A stretch of 64,000 nt of DNA from Trypanosoma brucei (lineage: Eukaryota), in NCBI GenBank assembly GCA_000002445.1, contig CM000208.1, positions 1,696,001 to 1,760,000 on the forward strand, in the 5' to 3' direction. The first letter of the stretch is position 1. Each line of letters opens with the position of its first letter. The notes under the pieces were generated by a model that was given only the letters and a program-made list of their open reading frames with translations, was not told the DNA's origin and made no database searches. This document shows positions 1 through 50,735 of the stretch, in pieces. The translations under genes and the position numbers were made by a program.

Positions 1-2
1 GC

Positions 3-1052
3 AAGACAATTCTTTTTGCAAACATTGCTGCCATAATTATAAACATCATTTCAGCTCTTTTGGCGTATCGATCAGGCTATATTGTGGCTTCTGCTGTAAT
101 GATGACATTATGTGCCCTGCACATACTGTGGTTTTACTTTGCACGGCACCGAATTCCTTTTGCTGCAGAACTTCTCAAGGCCTCTATCGATGTGTTGTCT
201 GGCTACAAGGCGGTATATTTATTCAATGTCATGTTATGTGTTGGTTGCACAGGATTACTTATACTGTGGGCAAACGCTTTTATGTGGGCGTTTCGGAGGG
301 TTAAATGGGAGACATCCGCTTCTTTCGGGTGGCCTCTGCTTGTGTTCCTTATGCTTTTCTTATTTTGGACATCGCAGGTGACAACTAATCTGATGCATGT
401 AACAACTGCTGGACTTACTGCTACATGGTACTTTGCTGGTAAGGAGAATATGCCAAAGAATCCCACCCTCGCCTCATTCAAGCGAGGTACCACCACAAGC
501 TTCGGCTCCATTTGCTTTGGGTCACTGCTTGTGGCAATTATCCGTCTCATACGGTGGCTCGTGTCAACCGCAGAAGACAGTGAACATGAAATATTACGCT
601 GTATATTCCTTTGTATTATTGGTTGTTTGGAGAGTTTGATGGAATACTTCAACACATACGCATTTGTTCATGTTGCCATCTATGGTTGTGGGTACATTGA
701 AGCAGCGAAAATGACATGGGAGTTGTGTAAACAGTGTGTGTTTTCTGCCCTATTCAATGACACTCTGATTGATGTAACACTCGGGCTACTTGCTACTTGT
801 GGTTCGCTACTGGTTGGTAGTGTTTTTGGTTTTCTCTTAAAATCCTGGGCAGCATTCGCGTTTGGTTTTGCCGTTTCTATATTGGTTCACCTCCTCATAT
901 TCTCCCCCGTGGGTAGTGCTGTAACCACCTTATTCGTATGTTATGCGGAAGTGCCTGAGGGCCTTGAGCACTCATCCCCTGACTTGTACGCGGCTCTTCA
1001 GAGAACTGACCAAAACGGCACATCAAATGGAGCAGCACCTCCACGTGTGTAA
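3..1052 (+). CDS. Choline-transporter-like (CTL/SLC44/PNS1 family) membrane protein, copy 1; 5'-partial, the gene begins upstream of the window
   Basis: The reading frame is open back to the window edge. The C-terminal block '...TAGLTATWYFAGKENMPKNPTLASFKRGTTTSFGSICFGSLLVAIIRLIRW...RCIFLCIIGCLESLMEYFNTYAFVHVAIYGCGY' fits the CTL/PNS1 signature I recall (WYF...FGS.AFGSL..A.....R.....CC.WCLE.F..F.N.NAY...AIYG). It is near-identical to copies 2 and 3. Confidence 0.7.
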   Translation, partial: KTILFANIAAIIINIISALLAYRSGYIVASAVMMTLCALHILWFYFARHRIPFAAELLKASIDVLSGYKAVYLFNVMLCVGCTGLLILWANAFMWAFRRVKWETSASFGWPLLVFLMLFLFWTSQVTTNLMHVTTAGLTATWYFAGKENMPKNPTLASFKRGTTTSFGSICFGSLLVAIIRLIRWLVSTAEDSEHEILRCIFLCIIGCLESLMEYFNTYAFVHVAIYGCGYIEAAKMTWELCKQCVFSALFNDTLIDVTLGLLATCGSLLVGSVFGFLLKSWAAFAFGFAVSILVHLLIFSPVGSAVTTLFVCYAEVPEGLEHSSPDLYAALQRTDQNGTSNGAAPPRV

Positions 1053-1569
1053 AACTTCTTAAGCTCATGCATATAAGGAGGATATGTGTTTGTCTCTCTT
1101 CTGCAAAAACTTTCCCTCCCATACCCAATTTCGCACACTCGCACCGTGTGAAGAAGAGTCAAATATCTTTTGTTTTTGATTCACTATATATAATGCACTG
1201 AAGCGTGTGTTATGCATGCAAATAAATTGATAACATCGCTGACTCTTCTTTTTGTTCTATTATATTACTCTGTTCGATTTGCTCTTGACTATTTTGTATT
1301 TTCTTTCCGTTTCATGTGATGGATGCGAGGGACATAACCACAACATATTGAATGTGTCGCGGTGTAAACTGCTCTGCTGTGAGCGGTCAGTATTGAGTTA
1401 ATATTTTTGTTCCGTGTGTTGAGGAAGTTGAATAGAGTCCTGATGCAGTCCACTCATGCGGTAAGCAGTGATGCGCCTTAGTGTGAAAATTCCTTTGATA
1501 CTGTGTGATTTGCACACTTCCATTCTTCTTCGTCACTGGAAGCTGTTGCTACTGCATACTAATGCATCA

Positions 1570-1620: not shown

Positions 1621-1725
1621 TAATCAAACAAATAAGATATATTGCAAGTGTACGCAATTGCTATCCAGCAACAAAGGGCTATAGACACTATTATCTCAGT
1701 GATAAGGTATTGTTTATTTCTGAAG

Positions 1726-3243
1726 ATGACGCAAAAGGGGTACGTCGGAGTTCCTGAGGAACCATACAGGTCTAAATTTACTCCTGAGGTGGGACCTTAT
1801 TATGGATTTGAAGGAGAAGGAACACATGCTGTGCCGCTACAAGGAATACCGCTATACCAAGGTGAAGGTAATAATCAAGAAGGATTGAAACGTTTTGTGG
1901 TACAAGGGTATAAGGATGTGTGGGCTGCAATATTATACATTTTATGCATTCTTGCAACTATTGGGCTTGGAATATATAATATTTGTCAGCAGGGATTGCG
2001 TAGTTTAATATCTGCTGATGTAGTAAATATTTTTTGGGCTTGTAATGATGATAGTTGTATTGACTCGGTGTGTCTTTTCTTTCTTCTTGCTTTTGCTTTT
2101 TCAGTTATTGTATGTTTGTCCTCTTTGTCGTTGATGAAACGTTTTGCTAGCGGAATAATCAAGGGTTGCAACGTTATTTTGCTTATTTTTTATGTCGTTG
2201 CTTTCCTTTTTTCGGTATGGGCACTTAATAACGCTTTTGCTATTCCATGGTTTTGTATGCTGGTTGTGCATTTACTTTGGCTTTTCTTTGCAGGTCGGCG
2301 TATTCCTCTCGCTGCTGAGCTTCTGAAAAGCTCTTCTACTGTGGTATGTAACTACAAAGCACTGTGCGCAGTCAACGCCGTCCTGTTTGGTGCACATGTC
2401 TTTTTCAGTGTTATGTGGGCGTCTGTTATGAAACCACTATATGCGCAGCTGGCGAAGATGGAGTTAAATCCGAGCGCTGGTGGAGCTCGCAATGAGGAAG
2501 ATTTGACTCTCAACATTCTATTCCTAAGCTTGCTTGCTCTGCTGTTCGTCATGTTTTGGGCGACGCAGGTGACAACTAATCTGATGCATGTAACAACTGC
2601 TGGACTTACTGCTACATGGTACTTTGCTGGTAAGGAGAATATGCCAAAGAATCCCACCCTCGCCTCATTCAAGCGAGGTACCACCACAAGCTTCGGCTCC
2701 ATTTGCTTTGGGTCACTGCTTGTGGCAATTATCCGTCTCATACGGTGGCTCGTGTCAACCGCAGAAGACAGTGAACATGAAATATTACGCTGTATATTCC
2801 TTTGTATTATTGGTTGTTTGGAGAGTTTGATGGAATACTTCAACACATACGCATTTGTTCATGTTGCCATCTATGGTTGTGGGTACACTGAAGCAGCGAA
2901 AATGACATGGGAGTTGTGTAAACGGTGTTCTTGTGCTGCTTTGTTTAATGACAGACTGATTGATGTGACATTATTTGTTGCTTCATTTATTGGTTCGCTA
3001 CTGGTTGGTGTTATCGTCGGTCTTGTGTCTGCATCGGGAGGTGGATTTGCGTTTGGTTTCACCGTTTCTATATTGGTTCACCTTTTCATATTCTCCCCCG
3101 TGGGTAGTGCTGTAACCACCTTATTCGTATGTTATGCGGAAGTGCCTGAGGGCCTTGAGCACTCATCCCCTGACTTGTACGCGGCTCTTCAGAGAACTGA
3201 CCAAAACGGCACATCAAATGGAGCAGCACCTCCACGTGTGTAA
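1726..3243 (+). CDS. Choline-transporter-like (CTL/SLC44/PNS1 family) membrane protein, copy 2, full length
   Basis: The ORF runs 1642–3243, and the first ATG after the pyrimidine tract is at 1726 (MTQKGYVGVPEE...). It has multiple hydrophobic segments and the CTL C-terminal signature. The last ~150 nt of CDS plus ~590 nt downstream are identical to copy 1. Confidence 0.75.
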   Translation: MTQKGYVGVPEEPYRSKFTPEVGPYYGFEGEGTHAVPLQGIPLYQGEGNNQEGLKRFVVQGYKDVWAAILYILCILATIGLGIYNICQQGLRSLISADVVNIFWACNDDSCIDSVCLFFLLAFAFSVIVCLSSLSLMKRFASGIIKGCNVILLIFYVVAFLFSVWALNNAFAIPWFCMLVVHLLWLFFAGRRIPLAAELLKSSSTVVCNYKALCAVNAVLFGAHVFFSVMWASVMKPLYAQLAKMELNPSAGGARNEEDLTLNILFLSLLALLFVMFWATQVTTNLMHVTTAGLTATWYFAGKENMPKNPTLASFKRGTTTSFGSICFGSLLVAIIRLIRWLVSTAEDSEHEILRCIFLCIIGCLESLMEYFNTYAFVHVAIYGCGYTEAAKMTWELCKRCSCAALFNDRLIDVTLFVASFIGSLLVGVIVGLVSASGGGFAFGFTVSILVHLFIFSPVGSAVTTLFVCYAEVPEGLEHSSPDLYAALQRTDQNGTSNGAAPPRV

Positions 3244-3760
3244 AACTTCTTAAGCTCATGCATATAAGGAGGATATGTGTTTGTCTCTCTTCTGCAAAAA
3301 CTTTCCCTCCCATACCCAATTTCGCACACTCGCACCGTGTGAAGAAGAGTCAAATATCTTTTGTTTTTGATTCACTATATATAATGCACTGAAGCGTGTG
3401 TTATGCATGCAAATAAATTGATAACATCGCTGACTCTTCTTTTTGTTCTATTATATTACTCTGTTCGATTTGCTCTTGACTATTTTGTATTTTCTTTCCG
3501 TTTCATGTGATGGATGCGAGGGACATAACCACAACATATTGAATGTGTCGCGGTGTAAACTGCTCTGTTGTGAGCGGTCAGTATTGAGTTAATATTTTTG
3601 TTCCGTGTGTTGAGGAAGTTGAATAGAGTCCTGATGCAGTCCACTCATGCGGTAAGCAGTGATGCGCCTTAGTGTGAAAATTCCTTTGATACTGTGTGAT
3701 TTGCACACTTCCATTCTTCTTCGTCACTGGAAGCTGTTTCTACTGCATACTAATGCATCA

Positions 3761-3812
3761 TCATTTCCTATTTCCTTTCCTCCTCCATCATTTTCCATTT
3801 TCTCTGTTTTTT
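3761..3812 (+). promoter_or_regulatory. Polypyrimidine tract (candidate splice acceptor) upstream of CTL copy 3
   Basis: This is the same CT-rich element as 1570–1620, repeated as part of the 2.2-kb tandem unit. Confidence 0.45.
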
Positions 3813-3916
3813 AATCAAACAAATAAGATATATTGCAAGTGTACGCAATTGCTATCCAGCAACAAAGGGCTATAGACACTATTATCTCAGTGATAAGGTA
3901 TTGTTTATTTCTGAAG

Positions 3917-5470
3917 ATGACGCAAAAGGGGTACGTCGGAGTTCCTGAGGAACCATACAGGTCTAAATTTACTCCTGAGGGGGGACCTTATTATGGATTT
4001 GAAGGAGAAGGAACACATGCTGTGCCGCACAAGGGAATACCGCTATACCAGGTGAAGGTTAATATCAAAAAGGGATTGAAACGTTTTGTGGTCAAGGGTA
4101 TTAGGGATGTGTGGGCTGCAATTTAATACATTTATGCATTTCTTGCAACTATTGGCTTTGCGTGGTATAATACTTTTTCTCAAAATTTTTCTGAAATTAT
4201 ATAGGATAGTGTTGGAAAGTTATTCTGGCGCAGTTCTGACGAATGCTTTACTGTTTTTCTCTCTGTTCTTTTCTTTGTTTCTTCTGTCAGTTCAGTAATT
4301 TTATCCTTGTTTTCTTTATCGTTGATGAAGCGCTTTCCACATGATATGATCATCACGGCAAACCTTCTATTCTTTGCCGTGTGCATTGTTGGTTTTTTGT
4401 TGTCTATTCTTTGGGGAAATCTTTATTTACTTCTTTTATGTTTGGGTCTTTTTATTGTGCATTGGTTATGTTTTACGGAGTTGCGGAACCGCGTTCCATT
4501 CGCTGCTGAGCTTCTGAAAAGCTCTTCTACTGTGGTATGTAACTACAAAGCACTGTGCGCAGTCAACGTCGTCCTCTTTGGTATGTTTACCCTTTTTCTG
4601 GTTTTGTGGTGCTCCGCTTTCTCTGCACTGAGCAATGTGTTGAGTAAACAACCAGACCCGAGCAGTGGTGTGAGTGGTAAACGAGGCAATTCATTTTTGA
4701 TTATTTCTGTATATTTACTGCACCTAATGTTGCTGTTTGTCATGTTTTGGGCGACGCAGGTGACAACTAATCTGATGCATGTAACAACTGCTGGACTTAC
4801 TGCTACATGGTACTTTGCTGGTAAGGAGAATATGCCAAAGAATCCCACCCTCGCCTCATTCAAGCGAGGTACCACCACAAGCTTCGGCTCCATTTGCTTT
4901 GGGTCACTGCTTGTGGCAATTATCCGTCTCATACGGTGGCTCGTGTCAACCGCAGAAGACAGTGAACATGAAATATTACGCTGTATATTCCTTTGTATTA
5001 TTGGTTGTTTGGAGAGTTTGATGGAATACTTCAACACATACGCATTTGTTCATGTTGCCATCTATGGTTGTGGGTACACTGAAGCAGCGAAAATGACATG
5101 GGAGTTGTATAAACGGTGTTCTTGTGCTGCTTTGTTTAGTTGTTTTTTTGTTGACGCTATGTTGTGTCTATTTGCAGTACTAAGCGCCCTTCTTGTTTGT
5201 GCTGTTGTTTGTACTGCTTATGGTTTAGTCTTTGATTTATCGTTTGGTATTTTGCATATTACCGCTGAAATCTTCGTATTCAGTTTTGGTGTTTGTATGT
5301 TGGTTCACCTCTTCGTCTTTTCTTCCGTAACCAGTGCTGTAACCACCTTATTCGTATGTTATGCGGAAGTGCCTGAGGGCCTTGAGCACTCATCCCCTGA
5401 CTTGTACGCGGCTCTTCAGAGAACTGACCAAAACGGCACATCAAATGGAGCAGCACCTCCACGTGTGTAA
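3917..5470 (+). pseudogene. Choline-transporter-like gene copy 3 with a frameshifted N-terminal region; either a pseudogene or an N-terminally truncated variant (intact ORF 4307–5470)
   Basis: ATG at 3917 encodes MTQKGYVGVPEE... as in copy 2, but the frame terminates at 4126. Homology then continues in a second frame (4086–4298) and a third (4307–5470, containing 'SLSLMKRF' as in copy 2). Compared with copy 2 there is a visible 1-nt deletion near 4118–4125. The C-terminal 387 aa are intact and carry the CTL signature. Confidence 0.5.
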
Positions 5471-6107
5471 AACTTCTTAAGCTCATGCATATAAGGAGGA
5501 TATGTGTTTGTCTCTCTTCTGCAAAAACTTTCCCTCCCATACCCAATTTCGCACACTCGCACCGTGTGAAGAAGAGTCAAATATCTTTTGTTTTTGATTC
5601 ACTATATATAATGCACTGAAGCGTGTGTTATGTATGCAAATAAATTGATAACATCGCTGACTCTTCTTTTTGTTCTATTATATTACTCTGTTCGATTTGC
5701 TCTTGACTATTTTGTATTTTCTTTCCGTTTCATGTGATGGATGCGAGGGACATAACCACAACATATTGAATGTGTCGCGGTGTAAACTGCTCTGTTGTGA
5801 GCGGTCAGTATTGAGTTAATATTTTTGTTCCGTGTGTTGAGGAAGTTGAATAGAGTCCTGATGCAGTCCACTCATGCGGTAATAGGAGTGACATTCCAAT
5901 GTTTGTACATTATTTGTGTCGTTTTAAATTTATTACGTCTTTTTTTTTTTTGTGTGTGTGTGTGCTTCTTGTCTTTCTGATGTTGTGGTGATGTCTTCTA
6001 TCTGTTTTTTTTTCAGTTTCTATTCATTGCTTAATATTGTTTTTTTACTTCTTTTTTATTGTTGGTGTAGATACGGATTGTAGAAGTCGTGTTGTTGGTC
6101 TGCCTGA

Positions 6108-6761
6108 ATGCGTGCGCTGTTTGGCGGTTTTGTCTTTGTTGTTGGTAACGATGTGCCGCAAGAGGTGCTTTCTCTAGTCGTTGCTTGTGGGGGTCGAGTG
6201 TGCAGGGAACTCACAGCTGCCACTACGCATGGCTTAGTTGTTGGACCTGAGTGCGGGGATTCTATTGATGTTGAACAATTACGCGGCCTGCGGATTCCAA
6301 TACTTCGAACTCATTGGATACGTGCGTGTGTAGCTGCTTTACGTATTTTGCCGATGAAAGGGGCAGCTGCTGCGTTCGACCCTTTTCTTTTTGATTCTTT
6401 ATTGTTTACAACTACGATGATGCGATGTGACCTGAAGGATCGTGTTGCTGCTCTTATTATTTTTTTGGGAGGTTCCTATTCTCCTCATCTTACCATCAGC
6501 ACTGATGTAGTGCTGGTTGGAGATGATGCGGTGGAGTCAATTAGTGGGAGTGATTGCGTTGTTGACGTTTCGCTTGTTGATAAGTCGCATCGTGGTCCCG
6601 CGAAACCTTTGGGTGCTGCAAATGCGGGCGTTAAGCGTGGTGTGCGTAGCTCAAAGTTAAAGCTGGCCGCAAGTCGCTCAATTCCATGTGTGAATTTGGT
6701 TTGGTTACAAAAGTGTATTTCCACTGGACAGGTGCATCTTCCCGTGACTGGGGGGTTGTGA
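6108..6761 (+). CDS. Hypothetical protein, possible tandem BRCT-like domains
   Basis: A 217-aa ORF sits in the same orientation as its neighbours. Two segments (FVFVVGNDVPQEVLSLVVACGGRV...THGLVVG...IPILRTHWIRAC and LIIFLGGSYSPHLTISTDVVLVG...IPCVNLVWLQKCISTG) resemble the BRCT pattern (hydrophobic–GG–TH/TD–I/V–W). Similarity is weak. Confidence 0.35.
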   Translation: MRALFGGFVFVVGNDVPQEVLSLVVACGGRVCRELTAATTHGLVVGPECGDSIDVEQLRGLRIPILRTHWIRACVAALRILPMKGAAAAFDPFLFDSLLFTTTMMRCDLKDRVAALIIFLGGSYSPHLTISTDVVLVGDDAVESISGSDCVVDVSLVDKSHRGPAKPLGAANAGVKRGVRSSKLKLAASRSIPCVNLVWLQKCISTGQVHLPVTGGL

Positions 6762-38147: not shown

Positions 38148-39110
38148 ATGGTAACACCCGAGCAAGCTGCCCTTATCGAGGGGGCGTTCCGTTCGATGGA
38201 CCGTGACGGTACGGGGCTGGTGCGACTTGAGGATATTTTCCGTGTCTTCGATGACTCGAGACATCCTCGTGTTCGCGACGGTGAGCTGGCTCCAGCAGCG
38301 ACGCGTGACATGCTGATGCACCAGTTTGGCGCAACCGCGCAGGCACACGGTGGCGTCTCGTTTGATGTGTTCATGCGCTTCCACGAACGTATGGCCGAAG
38401 ATGCAGCTGTTGCGAAGGTGAATGATAAAGAGTTGTTCCTCACGGACACCATAATTGGTGTCTGGCGCCTGGGCACGCTCCTTCAACCGACCCTCATTCG
38501 ACCTCTCTTTCCCGTTAATGTTCGTCCAAGCGGATTATACGCAACTCAGTACATGTCACTTGTGTGGGTAGACGAAGTCGCTGGTCCGGGGTCGTTCGTT
38601 GTACACGTCGTTCGCGATGTTGTGCGGCCGATATTCTCCCGGGGTGACCTACCGCCACAGTTACGTGGCATGTTCGCCTACCCGACAGAACTTGCAGGCA
38701 TGAAGATTATCGAGGAGCGCTTGCAGATCGCCACCCAACGATGGCTGGACTTTGTGTGGGAATACGAAGAAGGCAAGCACGCTGCCGTTCCTGGCATTAT
38801 ATCGGCTCGCGTCGATCCCGATACGCTTCCACAGTACCTCCGTGACATGATTGTGGAACATGATGTGGCAAAAGCGATACCTTCGCTGTTCTTTGTGCCA
38901 ACATCTGTGGCTGTTAACCCCATGTACAAGCGTTCAAGCGAGGAGTATGGCTACGGAGTTCCTGAAGAAGTAAAGCGTATGAGCAGGTGGAAGGACCTTA
39001 CCTATTCTGGTCAGGCGTGTGGGCTGATATACCATGGCCGCGTGGGAAAGTTCACAAGGGAACGGCTGAACGCGCCCGTACAGGATGTGGCTAGTGCAAT
39101 GAACATTTGA
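38148..39110 (+). CDS. Hypothetical protein with one N-terminal EF-hand-like loop
   Basis: This is a 320-aa ORF. 'FRSMDRDGTGLVRLEDIFRVFD' fits the EF-hand loop pattern (DxDGxGxIxxxE). The remainder is unrecognised. Confidence 0.4.
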   Translation: MVTPEQAALIEGAFRSMDRDGTGLVRLEDIFRVFDDSRHPRVRDGELAPAATRDMLMHQFGATAQAHGGVSFDVFMRFHERMAEDAAVAKVNDKELFLTDTIIGVWRLGTLLQPTLIRPLFPVNVRPSGLYATQYMSLVWVDEVAGPGSFVVHVVRDVVRPIFSRGDLPPQLRGMFAYPTELAGMKIIEERLQIATQRWLDFVWEYEEGKHAAVPGIISARVDPDTLPQYLRDMIVEHDVAKAIPSLFFVPTSVAVNPMYKRSSEEYGYGVPEEVKRMSRWKDLTYSGQACGLIYHGRVGKFTRERLNAPVQDVASAMNI

Positions 39111-39864
39111 GGGACGCAATTCCGCTTTCCAACGTTTTGTTGCTTATGTATATGCTGGTTGCGGTGGTGTGTGTAATTTCCATTCGCTTATACACGGGCC
39201 GCTTGGTTGCTTTGGGAGAGACGGTTGACTTTCTTTACCGTGATGTTGCCCGCCGTTATAGTAACCCTACATTTTTCAATTGTTGTACCCTTCTGTTTTT
39301 ACCCCGCCATTATTTTAGTACCCATGCTATTGAGAGTTTTACTGGAATGGGAGTAATGGGGAAGTGTAGCTTAATATTTCTATACTTTCTCAAAAAATGA
39401 TGGACGTATTTGATTGATGTAGTGTCGATTTACATTGTGCCATTGCCGCGGTTTTATGAGCTGATCACAATCCCATTGTTTGTAGGTTGTGGAAGACCAG
39501 CGGCGGTCAGACAAAGGCGGTCGATGGTGGAACTCGTGGGCATGTCTACGGGTTGTGTAGTACGTGGGTGCGCAAGTGGGCATTACTCGTTGTTCTTATA
39601 CTTTGTGTTCTACCTTTGTGAAGTATGCCCCTTAAACAGCTTACCTGTAGCTCTATGCATCTATAGCTGTCAGTTCGCCACCCTTGCCAGCTTGGTGTGA
39701 GCATCTTTTCTTACTTGCAACAGCTTGTGTCTTGCGTTTTTCCTCTAACCTCCGCATCCCTAACCCTTAATGAGTGGGTATCTACTTTTTTGTTTTTAGT
39801 AACGAGCTTCATCACCTAGAAATAGTCCACCTCACGTAGTCAGTCAGGAAGAGAGGGGTGTAAA

Positions 39865-45981: not shown

Positions 45982-47356
45982 GACCAGCAGCGATACGATG
46001 CGCATTTCCCAGACCATTTTTTGTACCCCATTGATGAGGATGTGGGAAAAGAAAAAGATGAATACAGTGCGGCTGCCAGACGTATGTGCCTCTTAATTGC
46101 ACGCAGCAATGTGCGCATTTTGTAGTCTGCTCCGTAATGACTTGTTTGATATTTCTTACGAGTTGTGGCAGCCTGCGACTTAACACGCTTGTGGTAACAC
46201 CCAGACCATATCATGCGCGGGAGTTGGTGGCAAACAGTCCGTCGTTGCCTCCCTAAATATTTTTTTTTGTGTCAGCTCCCTTTCTTTCAGTAATGGAAAG
46301 GACATGTTTAAACGAAATGTGAGGTGAATAATTGCATTGCCGTTTTGAAGGTGTGTGTTTTTCTCCCCGCTGGTGATCTGGCAACGCCAGGACCAATGAC
46401 AGTTCTCGTGTGATGTCATGATGATTGAAACCGGGTCGTGTAAGTGCGTAAAATCATCATCGAGTGTATCGCGGGCTCACAGGATCCAATCAATGGGGGA
46501 GAGGAGAAAATATTGATTTGATTGCAGGAATTAAAGTGTGACACCGCCCCGGTGCTGGAGAGAGATAGAGAAGTCGTGGAGATATTATGAATTCTGTAAT
46601 GGAATATCTTTTCTCTTGCGCAAACTCCTCCAGGACGGAAAGGCGACAGTTGTGTTTTGTTTGCTTTGTGAGGTATTTGGTGTTGGTGTCTGTTTACAAT
46701 GGAATAAAGGGAGAAAAGGTTGGGTGCATCAAAAAGCATCTGAAGGAAGGCAGTGGACATTTTCGAGAATGTAGGAAAAGAGAGATATCCATACTTTTTT
46801 TTCTTTTACCTTGTGCCGTGGATGGTGCCGAATTGTGGAGGTATTCTATTTTCTTTTGTACCTTTATATAATATGTAGGATGGGCAGTTATCATTATTAG
46901 CGTCCGGAGATTTTTAAAACGTTACTTTGTGTGTGTCGAACATTTTTGGGGGAACACAGTATTTATTGTTTTTTTCCGTCGGGGCGGTTGGTCGTTTTGT
47001 GAATGCAGCTTCCCGGTTATTTTCAAGTTCGTTTCCGAATATGTCACGTGGAGTTGAACGCTATGTGGCAGTGTTAACGTTGTTCGCGTGGCATTTCGTA
47101 AGCATGATGTGTTCAGTTTCCAGAAACTTGTGCATATATATATATATCCTATATTATTTTCTGCAAAATGCCTTCATTCACATTTACCATTCACCGTCGC
47201 CGTTTCCTTTTTTCTCTGGAAGCCGAGTGGCATCCTGCACTCGCCAAAACCAGTAATAGAAAAGAAAGTAGGGTACTCATAGCGAACTGCGTAAGCGCCG
47301 GCGTGTGCGCTTCGCAGAACATAGAGAAGTTGTGGAAGGCGCGCTGTAGGTTTGAC

Positions 47357-48355
47357 ATGAAGACAGTATACATTGTAGCGATGTGCGCAGGCGGTGGCGG
47401 ACTTCTTTGTATCCTCTTGGTAATCACCATATGCGTCCTCCGCAAGCGAACGAAGACGAGCAATACCGACGACGACGACAGCGCCGCGCAAAGTGGATGT
47501 GCACTTCACTACATAGATATGTCCGGTAATGAACGCGTCCTTGATGTGAACGCATTGGGTGCCAGAGACGGAATCACACTGTTGGCCACTATTGCTAATC
47601 ACTGCGGCGTGCAAGACTCTTCGGCGATTGCACTCACGTATGTGAATGATGCTCGTCGGTGTGTTGAAGTCGATCCTGATCTTCTGCTCCGAAGCGATGG
47701 GGAGTTGTCCGACCGGCTGATGCAGAGCAAGTTTTTCCCACTAAGGCTGGGATGGCGTGTGAAGCCACCACAACCAGAACAGAAAAGGCACCAAAAACAG
47801 CGTGTCGATGAGGACGCTAAGGCTTGTAGTGCTGAGGAAAGCCGTATTGCAACAAGAATCCACGAATGCCCTCAAGAGATGGCGAATGGCAGCTACAAGG
47901 ATGTAGTTGGCTCCACCCCGCTTCCACTTATTCTACCAACCAACTCGCACATCACATCCAGCAACCCCATAACAATTACTGCGGCACAGTACACCGTTGA
48001 AGGCTCTAACTACGTGCTGGATGTGAACACTGTCGTCGCGATGCAAGAGGCGTTACGTCAGCATACGCCCCGGTCCATTTTACTGGAAGATGGCTCAGTT
48101 ATACTTGTCGACCCCGCGAGGCGAACGGTGTGCTTGAGAACTCCTCAAGGCAATCAATGCGCGGTAACGGAGCATCCAGCTGGTGAACTCAAATATACCA
48201 TTGATAACAAGGGCGCTGGCCAGTGGTACCCATATAGATGTCCCATATATTTGCCACCCGGGCGGTGGTGTGTGAGGGCGGAGGCTTCGAGTGCGGATCA
48301 TCGTCGCGTTCGAACAACCTCCCGAGTTTTCACAGTAGATGTTGTTGAGAAATGA
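47357..48355 (+). CDS. Hypothetical protein with N-terminal signal-anchor/TM segment
   Basis: The ORF runs 47168–48355. The ATG at 47357 gives MKTVYIVAMCAGGGGLLCILLVITICVLRKR (a TM segment followed by a basic stop-transfer). I recognise no domain. Confidence 0.4.
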   Translation: MKTVYIVAMCAGGGGLLCILLVITICVLRKRTKTSNTDDDDSAAQSGCALHYIDMSGNERVLDVNALGARDGITLLATIANHCGVQDSSAIALTYVNDARRCVEVDPDLLLRSDGELSDRLMQSKFFPLRLGWRVKPPQPEQKRHQKQRVDEDAKACSAEESRIATRIHECPQEMANGSYKDVVGSTPLPLILPTNSHITSSNPITITAAQYTVEGSNYVLDVNTVVAMQEALRQHTPRSILLEDGSVILVDPARRTVCLRTPQGNQCAVTEHPAGELKYTIDNKGAGQWYPYRCPIYLPPGRWCVRAEASSADHRRVRTTSRVFTVDVVEK

Positions 48356-49094
48356 TAGATCACATACCGAGAGGTGATACTACGCAACGATAGCGAGATA
48401 AGCGGATATAATTTTCATTTGTCGTCGTCAATGTTGTTGTTGTTGTTGTTTTGGTTCTAATTTTTTTTTTTTTGGTGCGAGCGCTACTTCATTGTCTATG
48501 TGGAAAGCACCCAGTTCAGTGGTTTGACTTGTGCCACTGTTACCACCGGTTATTTATTTATTGTCTTACCCCTTTATTTTCTACTTGAACATGTATTTCA
48601 AACTTCTTGTGTTCCTGTGAGTATTCCCCCAAACCGGGTTCCCAATTACGCATATTTTTGATGGTGATGATGATGATATGTTGTATCCTAACATAAATAA
48701 GTTGGCTCGAAAGAAGTGGAAATATATAAATGAACAACGAATGTTAAGAGCGGGGAATCTGTCGGTAATTAACGTCTTTGGTATCGTTGGGTGCGTCTGT
48801 ATTGATATGTAGAACGAAATGTCCCTCTGCAAACAGATTTCTTACGGTAAACACCTTCCGTTTCGGACCGAAAAGTTGTTGGATTTTTTGTCTTTGTTTT
48901 TTTTTTCTTGCTTGGGCGGCTATCATATTCCGATACGGCTCTTTATTATTATTTCTCGCCCTTTTTTTTCTCTGCAGACTCCTTTGTTCCCACCTCGCCC
49001 GTGTATTGCGCTTCCCGTGGGGGGTAAAGGGGTAAGAAGGTGGCGGCACATAGCTGTTCAGGTGAAAAAAAAAGAGGAAAACGAAAGTGTTGCA

Positions 49095-50735
49095 ATGAAC
49101 ATTTCTGATATCGTGGGAGAGGTGATAACTGATGCAGTGGACGACAGACACTACTCGCACCTGGAGGCATTACTTGAGCATAACATTGATGAATTAATTA
49201 GGCGGTACCATGTCCTTGTGGGGCCCCTCAAAACATTAATGGAGATGGAATGCGGAGAGGCTGCTGCAGTGAATGGACCCTCACCCAAGAGCCACACGGG
49301 TGGGTCCGAGTTTCCGCAATGCTTCGCCATGGGCATGACATATTTCAGCCTTGCCATCATGCGAGGGCATGCTGCGGGAGGGATCGAAGATAGTGAAATC
49401 TCCTCTTTGATACTAACACTTGTGGAGCAGCATCTGTTATCACAGACATCAGGGGCATATAAACAACTCCGAGGTCATGCGCACGCGCTTCAACGCTTCG
49501 GGCAGTTGCTGAAGGGATATGTTGATCTTCTAGATCACAGCGATGTTGGGAATCACCTCCGTAAGCTTAGTTATCTTCAGAGTGCGGTGACGCTCTTTTC
49601 CCCATCAACTAACCATCTCACCGTTGCTCACCCACTTCTGGTGCGGGAGGCGGCGCGCAGTAACTGTCCAGCCCCTGCTCTGACTGTCATGCGGCAGCCA
49701 ATATTAGAATTATCGTGTGGAGAAACTGGCGCTGGACTCGCTTGTTGTTGTTCTTATTATTACGAGGGCGGCCTCTTGCTAGCCGCTATGCAGTGTTGGG
49801 AGTCGTCGGTTTCGTGGCTGCGAAACTCTCTGTCATTAGTGAAGGTTGTGTCGCGTGTGGGGAGTCCAGAACTTAAGGTAGTTTCCGCGACACCTTCTCT
49901 TTCTCCGGATGATACCGGTAACATCATAGTGTCTGCAACAAAAGCGTTCGTTCTCCTCTGCATTAGTGTCTACGGGGATTGGGGTGACGCTGCAGATCAC
50001 ATGAGAGTTCAGCAAGTTATTCAGCAGTATCGAAATAGCAATGTGGGATCGTACGTACGCCTGCTGGTGGCTGCGCAACGCCGTGATTTTGGGCAGTGGC
50101 ACACAATCAAAAGAAACTTTTCACCTGTTTGGGAACAGGATGGAACCGTGTCTCTTCTCGCCACAGCTGAATCACGACTGCAGCGGCACGTTGTCCTTGA
50201 TATCGCGAAAGTTTACAGTCGTGTGCGTCTCTCGACCATCGCGTCGGCGCTTCGTGTGTGTTGTCTCAGCGAGACAGAAGGTGGCGGCAACACATCAAGT
50301 GGTAGTGGTGACTCTGGGGAAAGCACACAAGGGAAAATTAACGCCGTTGAGCTGCTTTTATCAATGCGGGAAGATGGGGAACTCATCGCATCAGTCGAGC
50401 ATGTGCCTCGTAGGGAAGAGAGTGAAGAAGAAGCAGAGTTGAGTGAAGCGGAGGAAACGGCAGGTGATATTTCTGCGCAGCAACAGCATCTGGCTGTCAG
50501 GCTCGCTATTCCACCGAGGCGGATTCCTGCTGAGTTAGGTGAGAGTTGCAAAGTGTTCCATGATTTATACAGGCAGGGTGGAGAAAACCAGCACGTCATA
50601 GATGCGAAGATACAAGGAGTGTTGCACGGCGAAATTGAGCGGTGCAAGAGGGCGTATGCGGCACTGATGAAGGTGGCAATGGGTTCACGCGGCGTGGTGC
50701 CACCAGAATGTGAAGAAGCCCAAGTGATCGTGTGA
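49095..50735 (+). CDS. Hypothetical protein, possible PCI-domain-like C-terminal region
   Basis: The ORF runs 48819–50735. Its upstream part translates a pyrimidine tract, so the start is taken at ATG 49095 (MNISDIVGEV...). The region 'VVLDIAKVYSRVRLSTIASALRV' resembles the winged-helix end of PCI domains. Support is weak. Confidence 0.35.
   Translation: MNISDIVGEVITDAVDDRHYSHLEALLEHNIDELIRRYHVLVGPLKTLMEMECGEAAAVNGPSPKSHTGGSEFPQCFAMGMTYFSLAIMRGHAAGGIEDSEISSLILTLVEQHLLSQTSGAYKQLRGHAHALQRFGQLLKGYVDLLDHSDVGNHLRKLSYLQSAVTLFSPSTNHLTVAHPLLVREAARSNCPAPALTVMRQPILELSCGETGAGLACCCSYYYEGGLLLAAMQCWESSVSWLRNSLSLVKVVSRVGSPELKVVSATPSLSPDDTGNIIVSATKAFVLLCISVYGDWGDAADHMRVQQVIQQYRNSNVGSYVRLLVAAQRRDFGQWHTIKRNFSPVWEQDGTVSLLATAESRLQRHVVLDIAKVYSRVRLSTIASALRVCCLSETEGGGNTSSGSGDSGESTQGKINAVELLLSMREDGELIASVEHVPRREESEEEAELSEAEETAGDISAQQQHLAVRLAIPPRRIPAELGESCKVFHDLYRQGGENQHVIDAKIQGVLHGEIERCKRAYAALMKVAMGSRGVVPPECEEAQVIV

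What the first reader, a model, noticed from the sequence alone, without database searches (positions are those of the whole stretch)
3917..5470. Third CTL copy carries frameshifts in its N-terminal region
Copy 3 starts with the same MTQKGYVGVPEE... N-terminus as copy 2, but its frame stops at 4126. Homologous coding then continues in two other frames (4086–4298, then 4307–5470), and a 1-nt deletion is visible near 4118–4125. Either this is a decaying paralogue within a homogenising array, or an N-terminally truncated isoform is made from the internal ATG at 4307, or there is a sequencing error in a T-rich stretch.
Basis: seen in the sequence. Interest (0 to 1): 0.5.

Follow-up and report, generated by a model that had tools for sequence, protein, structure and literature searches.

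The report
Probable sequencing error, not frameshifted gene
The third choline-transporter-like gene in this Trypanosoma brucei TREU927 array is broken by two in-frame stop codons, not frameshifts, and they lie in a 270-base patch that looks like poor-quality base calls, so the gene is probably intact in the parasite.

Summary
The window is T. b. brucei TREU927 chromosome 10. Copy 3 (3917-5470) is the last gene of a choline-transporter-like (Pfam PF04515) tandem array.

- **Frame:** it is not frameshifted overall. Homology to copy 2 and to the intact 517-aa T. b. gambiense orthologue runs gaplessly in the 3917 frame for all 518 codons.
- **Disruptions:** two in-frame stops, TAA at 4124-4126 and TAG at 4202-4204.
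- **Reader errors:** 4307 is in the same frame as 3917 and is TTG, not ATG. The first later ATG is at 4325. The 4086-4298 ORF is noise.
- **Where the differences lie:** 33 of the 36 differences from the gambiense gene fall in 3981-4250.
- **Their pattern:** counts per 50 nt rise 1, 3, 5, 7, 8, 9 and then drop to 0. There are five strictly alternating one-base deletion-then-insertion pairs, and 3 transitions against 20 transversions (local baseline 115:45).
- **Uniqueness:** eight other paralogue copies in three subspecies lack these changes, and no donor sequence was found.

The best explanation (about 0.7) is a low-quality Sanger read tail carried into the reference consensus. No TREU927 protein is deposited for this gene. 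A real null allele remains possible (about 0.2). Interest is low.

The parts
3917..5470 (+). Copy 3 of the choline-transporter-like (CTL) array: one 518-codon reading frame (517 aa plus TAA) interrupted by two in-frame stops. It is the orthologue of the intact 517-aa T. b. gambiense gene. The probable locus ID Tb927.10.6760 is inferred by counting, not verified.
   Evidence: Translation. Pfam PF04515 at 217 bits, cutoff 26.9. 94% identity and 100% coverage to P0001. Synteny with L001/L004. VPS45 = Tb927.10.6780 and a choline transporter = Tb927.10.6730 in the literature.
3981..4250 (+). Anomalous tract holding 33 of the 36 differences from the gambiense orthologue: 10 one-base indels in 5 deletion-then-insertion pairs, plus 23 substitutions (3 transitions, 20 transversions). 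Density rises 5' to 3' and stops abruptly after 4250.
4124..4126 (+). First in-frame stop, TAA at codon 70. It is TTA (Leu) in copy 2, in gambiense 517 and in all other paralogue copies. It arises from ATATTATAC becoming ATTTAATAC.
4202..4204 (+). Second in-frame stop, TAG at codon 96. It is TCG (Ser) in gambiense 517 (C to A at 4203).
4325..4327 (+). First in-frame ATG after the two stops (codon 137). This is the only possible start for a 381-aa N-terminally truncated product. The codon at 4307 is TTG.
   Evidence: Hydropathy places TM1 at about aa 61-87 and TM2 at about aa 109-137.
4086..4298 (+). Spurious 70-aa ORF in the +1 frame of a T-rich stretch. It is not homologous to CTL proteins.
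   Evidence: score 26, against 428 for the 3917 frame.
3244..3916 (+). Intergenic region upstream of copy 3. It is 668/673 identical to the one upstream of copy 2 and contains a long polypyrimidine tract, so copy 3 presumably has the same mRNA-processing signals (inference).
1726..3243 (+). Copy 2, an intact 505-aa CTL gene (EAN78089.1 / XP_822917.1).
1..1052 (+). 3' part of copy 1, the 490-aa CTL gene (EAN78088.1), cut by the window start.

Best explanation
Copy 3 is a genuine fourth member of the T. brucei chromosome-10 CTL/SLC44-like array. Its apparent disruption in the TREU927 reference is most likely a base-calling and assembly artefact.

The proposed cause is that a 270-nt stretch of consensus (3981-4250) was taken from the low-quality 3' tail of a single + strand Sanger read. 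This would have happened in a tandem repeat that is hard to assemble. The tail miscounts short homopolymers, dropping one base and gaining one a few bases later. It also miscalls bases more or less at random. These errors scramble several conserved codons and create TAA (4124) and TAG (4202). The consensus then switches to a good read at 4251.

On this reading, the real TREU927 gene encodes an intact 517-aa protein nearly identical to the T. b. gambiense one.

- **Shown:** the frame structure, the location, spectrum, gradient and uniqueness of the differences, and the absence of a deposited protein.
- **Inferred:** that the cause is read quality. No traces or reads could be inspected.
For: 1. 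The window is TREU927 chromosome 10. Copy 1, copy 2 and the downstream BRCT gene are EAN78088, EAN78089 and EAN78090. These accessions are consecutive, so no protein was deposited for copy 3.
2. T. b. gambiense has an intact 517-aa orthologue at the syntenic position, of identical length.
3. 33 of the 36 differences lie in 3981-4250. The remaining 1284 nt carry 3 substitutions and no indel.
4. Counts per 50 nt from 3951 are 1, 3, 5, 7, 8, 9, then 0, 0, 0, 0. This is a monotonic rise with an abrupt end, as at the switch point of a mosaic consensus.
5. There are five one-base deletions, each followed 4-10 nt later by a one-base insertion, mostly in 2-4 nt homopolymers. They alternate strictly (1 in 252 orderings), so length is exactly preserved.
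6. Substitutions are 3 transitions to 20 transversions. The baseline over 28 kb of the same window against gambiense is 115:45 (Fisher P = 8e-8). The patch is roughly compatible with random miscalls at 1:2 (P = 0.026).
7. In the block conserved among paralogues, eight other copies from TREU927, gambiense and T. b. equiperdum all lack the changes.
8. No better-matching donor exists in the window or in either related array.
9. The 3' edge at 4250 lies inside copy-3-specific sequence, and 4251-4496 is identical to gambiense. The tract therefore does not follow the array's gene-conversion block boundaries.
10. No comparable tract occurs in about 44 kb of the window compared with gambiense or T. 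equiperdum OVI.
11. Apparent frameshifts and truncations caused by assembly errors are documented for T. brucei assemblies (PMC8445201).
Against: - No raw reads, traces or quality values for TREU927 could be examined.
- No independent T. b. brucei sequence of this copy is present in the searchable collections. P0001's cluster has one member, and TREU927 is not indexed.
- At normal shotgun depth, several good reverse reads should have covered 3981-4250. The explanation therefore needs locally poor or mis-sorted coverage in the repeat.
- The transition deficit is somewhat stronger than random miscalling predicts (P = 0.026). 13 of the 23 substitutions are A<->T or G<->C swaps, which I cannot explain.
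- T. b. equiperdum lacks a 517-type copy altogether, so loss of this paralogue is tolerated in at least one lineage.
- All three differences outside the tract are non-synonymous. This is statistically unremarkable.
Confidence: 0.7

Rival explanations
1. Real pseudogene or null allele. Copy 3 of TREU927 truly carries the two nonsense codons and the scrambled N-terminal codons. It is a dead paralogue in a redundant array.
For: - The stops are in the deposited reference, and no protein was deposited for this gene.
- The array is dynamic. TREU927 copy 1 is a recombinant relative to gambiense.
- T. b. equiperdum has lost the 517-type copy. Its last copy is a 505-aa chimera with a 517-like 3' end.
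- The three differences outside the tract are all non-synonymous, two of them at residues conserved in all paralogues.
Against: - Decay would be spread along the gene. Instead, 92% of the differences sit in 17% of the length, and the rest is 99.8% identical to the intact orthologue with no indel.
- The 3:20 transition:transversion spectrum contradicts the local 115:45.
- Five strictly alternating, immediately compensated one-base indels are not expected without selection on the frame. Yet the intervening conserved residues are destroyed and stops are present.
- The monotonic gradient with an abrupt end has no obvious biological cause.
- Ancient divergence followed by repair in gambiense cannot explain 4146-4250. 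That stretch is 517-specific and has no donor, while 4251-4496 is identical between the two subspecies.
Confidence: 0.2
2. N-terminally truncated isoform. The stops are real, and a 381-aa protein is made from the internal ATG at 4325. It keeps the whole Pfam Choline_transpo domain.
For: - The ORF downstream of the stops is intact and scores 218 bits against PF04515.
- The upstream processing signals are the same as for copy 2.
- T. brucei appears to lack nonsense-mediated decay, so such an mRNA could persist (PMC8445201).
Against: - The product would lack predicted TM1, the first loop and TM2. Every other family member retrieved at full length keeps these.
- Reaching ATG 4325 would require initiation at the ninth AUG of any frame from the gene's start (counted from the sequence), past the AUG at 3917 and a 69-codon ORF.
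- This depends entirely on the stops being real.
Confidence: 0.04
3. True frameshifted gene, either decoded by ribosomal frameshifting or with homologous coding passing through the 4086-4298 frame.
For: Short patches of the conserved N-terminal block (GEG, QGY, LCI) do read in the third frame between each deletion and its compensating insertion (frame 2, score 60).
Against: - The 4086-4298 frame shows no homology (score 26).
- The original frame aligns gaplessly over 140 residues (score 428).
- 4307-5470 is in the original frame.
Confidence: 0.01

Closest known systems
T. b. gambiense DAL972 517-aa choline transporter-like protein (P0001; FN554973.1 positions about 1649085-1650638; accession probably CBH15737.1, inferred from neighbouring numbers)
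   Same: - Syntenic last gene of the array, directly upstream of the BRCT, VPS45 and GCP genes.
- Identical length (1554 nt).
- Identical outside 3981-4250 except for 3 substitutions.
- Carries the same copy-specific segments and the 12-aa GILHITAEIFVF insertion.
   Different: The gambiense gene is intact. It has TTA and TCG where the window has TAA and TAG, and none of the paired indels.
TREU927 copy 2 (EAN78089.1, 505 aa; probably Tb927.10.6750) and the rest of the Tb927.10.6730-6760 array
   Same: - Same Pfam family.
- 100% identical 5' region up to 3980.
- Identical blocks at 4500-4568, 4739-5138 (one mismatch at 5109) and 5333-5487.
- 99% identical upstream intergenic region.
   Different: Copy-specific blocks are only 45-54% identical. 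Copy 2 is intact and has a deposited protein.
CTL/SLC44 family: yeast Pns1 (PDB 9f63) and human SLC44A1 (CTL1)
   Same: - PF04515 domain.
- Multi-pass membrane architecture.
- E = 6.5e-30 to Pns1 over residues 116-499.
   Different: About 30% identity or less. The substrate is unknown in trypanosomes. Source annotations of Pns1 homologues state that neither null mutation nor overexpression affects choline transport (names).
Apparent frameshifts and truncated ORFs caused by assembly errors in T. brucei genome assemblies (Cosentino, Brink and Siegel 2021, PMC8445201)
   Same: A gene looks disrupted in a reference assembly because of consensus errors, not biology.
   Different: That work concerns long-read indel errors and collapsed alleles in Lister 427. 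Here the suspected cause is a Sanger read tail in the 2005 TREU927 assembly, and it has not been verified.

Membership tests
CTL / SLC44 / Pns1 family (Pfam PF04515 Choline_transpo) | Match to the family profile above the curated threshold | tested here: met
   217-218 bits against a 26.9 cutoff. This holds for the conceptual full-length product and for the 4307-5467 ORF.
CTL / SLC44 / Pns1 family (Pfam PF04515 Choline_transpo) | Multi-pass membrane topology with an N-terminal TM1, a loop, TM2 and then the conserved core | tested here: inconclusive
   A crude Kyte-Doolittle scan of the gambiense orthologue finds hydrophobic segments at about 61-87, 109-137, 140-190, 210-243, 256-284, 321-346, 353-371 and 400-483. 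No dedicated topology predictor or structure model was run.
CTL / SLC44 / Pns1 family (Pfam PF04515 Choline_transpo) | Sequence similarity to a structurally solved member | tested here: met
   Yeast Pns1 (9f63_A), E = 6.5e-30.
CTL / SLC44 / Pns1 family (Pfam PF04515 Choline_transpo) | Choline or other substrate transport activity | not testable with these tools
   Needs uptake assays.
Genuine (decaying) pseudogene | Disabling mutations in the reading frame | tested here: met
   TAA at 4124-4126 and TAG at 4202-4204 in the deposited sequence.
Genuine (decaying) pseudogene | Relaxed constraint along the whole gene: scattered substitutions and uncompensated indels | tested here: not met
   Outside 3981-4250 there are 3 substitutions in 1284 nt and no indels. 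Intact copy 2 has 4 in 1518 nt.
Genuine (decaying) pseudogene | Mutation spectrum like the neutral spectrum of the lineage | tested here: not met
   3 transitions to 20 transversions, against 115:45 locally. Fisher P = 8e-8.
Genuine (decaying) pseudogene | Lesions reproduced in independent reads of the same strain | not testable with these tools
The collections hold no second copy-3-type sequence.
Frameshifted gene / programmed frameshift | Homology moves to another reading frame downstream of the break | tested here: not met
   Same frame throughout. The alternative frames score 26 and 60 against 428.
Consensus error from a low-quality read tail | Discrepancies confined to one short tract, with rising density and an abrupt end | tested here: met
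   Bins of 1, 3, 5, 7, 8, 9 and then 0. No other such tract in about 44 kb.
Consensus error from a low-quality read tail | Length-preserving miscounts of short homopolymers and a near-random substitution spectrum | tested here: met
   Five alternating deletion-insertion pairs with net length 0. The transition:transversion ratio of 3:20 fits 1:2 only marginally (P = 0.026) but is far from the biological ratio.
Consensus error from a low-quality read tail | Low base-quality values or single-read coverage in the original assembly | not testable with these tools

The most novel reading that the evidence does not exclude
The tract is real. It would be a 270-bp hypermutated patch with 12% change, a strong transversion bias, tandem substitutions and paired +/-1 indels. 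It would have been left by highly error-prone repair or gene-conversion synthesis within a trypanosome tandem gene array, and it inactivated one paralogue in TREU927. This would be a mutational signature not described for T. brucei core genes.
Probability: 0.06. Interest if true: 0.55.

Novelty: not a real feature. Interest (0 to 1): 0.1.

Why it matters
The practical effect is on annotation. If the tract is an error, TREU927 has four intact CTL-like transporter genes rather than three plus a pseudogene. The locus (probably Tb927.10.6760) should then be corrected so that proteomic, RNAi and transporter-family studies include it.

The case also gives a recognisable signature for separating consensus errors from true pseudogenes in old Sanger references:
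- clustering of differences in one short tract
- a 5'-to-3' gradient with an abrupt end
- length-preserving indel pairs
- a transversion excess

If the tract proved real, it would be an unusual localised mutational event worth study. Either way it does not reveal a new kind of genetic element.

Tried and rejected
Searches that gave nothing:
- **Independent copy-3 sequences:** two protein searches with shorter queries, the copy-3-specific region and the N-terminal 160 aa, returned no hits at all. They did not even return P0001, so they are uninformative.
- **TREU927 in the contig index:** neither P0003 nor the TREU927 BRCT protein is on record.
- **Logan contigs with the BRCT gene:** they carry only 2-112 nt upstream of the gene and never reach the array.
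- **T. equiperdum OVI:** its contig ends 299 nt upstream of the BRCT gene.
- **Exact look-ups:** the 69-aa N-terminal ORF and the 381-aa ATG-4325 product are not in the 15-billion-protein collection. This is weak evidence only.
- **Literature:** searches for trypanosome CTL genes and for pseudogene lists gave nothing specific to this locus. Only VPS45 = Tb927.10.6780 and a choline transporter = Tb927.10.6730 were found. From these I inferred the locus numbering, but I have not verified it.

Explanations rejected:
- **Gene-conversion donor for the tract:** the best match anywhere is the orthologous gambiense segment at 88%.
- **Old diverged N-terminus later repaired in gambiense:** 4146-4250 is copy-3-specific and 4251-4496 is identical between subspecies.
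- **Stop-codon reassignment or readthrough:** the same genes terminate with TAA, and all neighbouring ORFs are free of internal stops.

Full report
**Identity of the region.** The window is Trypanosoma brucei brucei TREU927 chromosome 10 (4,054,025 bp).
- The translated ORFs match deposited TREU927 proteins exactly. Copy 1 (window ..-1052) is EAN78088.1 (490 aa). Copy 2 (1726-3243) is EAN78089.1 (505 aa). The BRCT-domain gene (6108-6761) is EAN78090.1. VPS45, a gamma-tubulin-complex protein, cytosolic GAPDH and others follow.
- All three array genes match Pfam PF04515 (Choline_transpo) at 217-232 bits.
- The closest solved structure is yeast Pns1, 9f63, at E = 6.5e-30.
- The accessions on either side of copy 3 are consecutive, so no protein was ever deposited for copy 3. 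The reference annotators evidently treated it as a pseudogene or left it uncalled (inference).
- The literature gives VPS45 = Tb927.10.6780 and a 'choline transporter' = Tb927.10.6730. Counting loci suggests copy 3 is Tb927.10.6760. This is inferred, not verified.

**Checking the observation.**
- Copy 3 begins at ATG 3917 with the copy-2 N-terminus.
- That frame hits TAA at 4124-4126.
- Single-base indels are visible nearby.

The description of the frames is wrong.
- Translating 3917-5470 in one frame gives 518 codons with only two internal stops: TAA at codon 70 (4124-4126) and TAG at codon 96 (4202-4204).
- The '4307-5470' ORF is in this same frame (390 nt downstream). Its first codon is TTG, an artefact of bacterial-style ORF listing. 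The first ATG after the stops is 4325.
- Copy 2's first 145 residues align gaplessly to the 3917 frame with score 428. The 4086-4298 frame scores 26 and the third frame scores 60.
- The gene is therefore not frameshifted overall. The 4086-4298 ORF is noise in a T-rich stretch.

**Comparison with relatives.**
- T. b. gambiense DAL972 has a syntenic array of four genes (489, 490, 505 and 517 aa), followed by the same BRCT, VPS45 and GCP genes.
- Its 517-aa gene (P0001) is the orthologue of copy 3. It is exactly the same length and is intact.
- T. b. equiperdum has 489, 490, 490 and 505 aa genes. The last is a chimera whose 3' end resembles the 517 type.
- A gapped alignment of copy 3 with the gambiense gene shows 36 differences, of which 33 lie between 3981 and 4250. 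The other 1284 nt carry three substitutions and no indel. Intact copy 2 shows a similar 4 differences in 1518 nt.

**Anatomy of the tract.**
- Event counts per 50 nt, starting at 3951, are 1, 3, 5, 7, 8, 9 and then 0, 0, 0, 0.
- There are five one-base deletions, located between 4028/4029, 4049/4050, 4063/4064, 4092/4093 and 4130/4131.
- Each deletion is followed 4-10 nt later by a one-base insertion, at 4033, 4059, 4072, 4101 and 4139. Most are contractions or expansions of 2-4-nt homopolymers.
- A sixth ambiguous pair at 4123/4125 creates the TAA.
- The order is strictly deletion, insertion, deletion, insertion (1 of 252 orderings). This is why the frame and the total length are preserved while 2-4 codons are scrambled each time: LQ to HK, QGEG to QVKV, NNQE to NIKK, QGYK to KGIR, IL to I-stop.
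- The 23 substitutions are 3 transitions and 20 transversions, and many are adjacent doublets.
- Over 28 kb of the same window compared with gambiense, the ratio is 115 transitions to 45 transversions (Fisher P = 8e-8). Event density is 7 per kb there, against 122 per kb in the tract.
- The 3:20 ratio is marginally compatible with random miscalls at 1:2 (P = 0.026).
- In the part of the tract that is conserved among paralogues, eight other copies from three subspecies all lack the changes.
- BLAST of the tract against the window and both related arrays finds no better donor than the orthologous gambiense segment at 88%.
- No comparable tract exists in about 44 kb of the window compared with gambiense or T. 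equiperdum OVI. The other dense spots there are multi-base length polymorphisms.

**Interpretation.** The combination of features above is what is expected when a mosaic consensus, of the phrap type, incorporates the degraded 3' tail of one Sanger read and then switches to a good read. That expectation rests on established knowledge of such assemblers, not on anything tested here.
- The local context makes this plausible. The true sequence from about 3064 to 4145 would be nearly identical to 873-1954, about 1.1 kb of repeat, so shotgun reads are hard to place.
- Biological alternatives fit poorly. Neutral decay would be spread along the gene and dominated by transitions.
- Compensated frameshifts imply selection on the frame, yet conserved residues are destroyed and stops are present.
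- Gene conversion needs a donor, and none is seen. The tract's 3' edge at 4250 also lies inside copy-3-specific sequence, while 4251-4496 is identical to gambiense. So the tract does not follow the array's conversion-block boundaries.
- I therefore put about 0.7 on an artefact, about 0.2 on a real null allele, and a few per cent on a truncated isoform. About 0.06 of the total is a genuinely hypermutated repair tract.

**Caveats.** I could not examine any TREU927 reads or traces, and the searchable collections contain no other copy-3-type sequence.
- Normal shotgun depth should have provided good reverse-strand reads over the tract, so the artefact explanation requires locally poor or mis-sorted coverage.
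- The excess of A<->T and G<->C swaps (13 of 23) is unexplained.
- T. b. equiperdum's loss of the 517-type copy shows the paralogue is dispensable in at least one lineage.

**If the stops are real.**
- The upstream intergenic region is 668/673 identical to that of copy 2, with the same polypyrimidine tract. The locus would therefore likely be transcribed and trans-spliced like copy 2 (inference).
- T. brucei reportedly lacks nonsense-mediated decay (PMC8445201).
- The only candidate product would start at ATG 4325. It would lack predicted TM1, the first loop and TM2, an architecture not seen in any full-length relative.

**Verdict.** The favoured reading is a sequencing and assembly error in an old reference. 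The gene family and the array are known, and the orthologue is annotated as intact in gambiense. Interest is low, and the value lies in correcting the annotation.

Noticed in passing
window 3831-5487 versus 1640-3260: Copies 2 and 3 are a sharp mosaic. Blocks at 3831-3980, 4500-4568, 4739-5138 and 5333-5487 are 100% identical apart from one mismatch at 5109. They alternate with blocks only 45-54% identical (4146-4496, 4577-4731, 5142-5334). This points to segmental gene conversion that homogenises some segments while copy-specific membrane segments are kept.
   Followed up: partly
window 1-1400 versus L004:1724-5271; proteins P0003, P0004, P0005: TREU927 copy 1 (490 aa) is a recombinant relative to gambiense. 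It has the N-terminus of the gambiense 490-aa gene but the TTAENEPSNSKSLW...SVSFLLM segment of the gambiense 489-aa gene. The intergenic region at 1215-1401 is also replaced.
   Followed up: partly
L003:1381-9365 (T. b. equiperdum CM010681.1): This array has a different composition (489, 490, 490, 505 aa). It has no 517-type gene, and the last copy carries a 517-like C-terminal segment (VVCMLVHLFVFSSVTSAVTT). This suggests unequal crossing-over.
   Followed up: partly
window about 5247-5282: Copy 3 has a 36-nt in-frame insertion (GILHITAEIFVF) relative to copy 2. The gambiense 517-aa gene has it too.
   Followed up: no
window 203-655, 2352-2846 and 4543-5037 (- strand): Long antisense ORFs of 150-164 aa recur inside the conserved block of each CTL copy. 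They are probably spurious and repeat only because the underlying DNA is identical.
   Followed up: no
window 48819-50735 and 47168-48355: Deposited protein lengths differ between subspecies. The COP9-subunit-3-like protein is 638 aa in TREU927 but 546 aa in gambiense and equiperdum. A hypothetical protein is 395 aa in TREU927 and OVI, 440 aa in gambiense and 332 aa in equiperdum. These look like differences in start-codon choice or repeat length.
   Followed up: no
window 38899-39335: This is the densest cluster of ordinary differences from gambiense outside the array (about 10 events in 270 nt). It lies at the 3' end of the EF-hand gene (38148-39110) and just beyond. T. b. equiperdum has two copies of that gene, and a Tb10.v4 'bin' copy exists in TREU927, which hints at a segmental duplication.
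   Followed up: no
window 4569, 4713, 5109: The only three differences between copy 3 and the gambiense gene outside the tract are all non-synonymous: A218V, F266Y and C398Y. Two of them are at residues conserved in all paralogues.
   Followed up: partly
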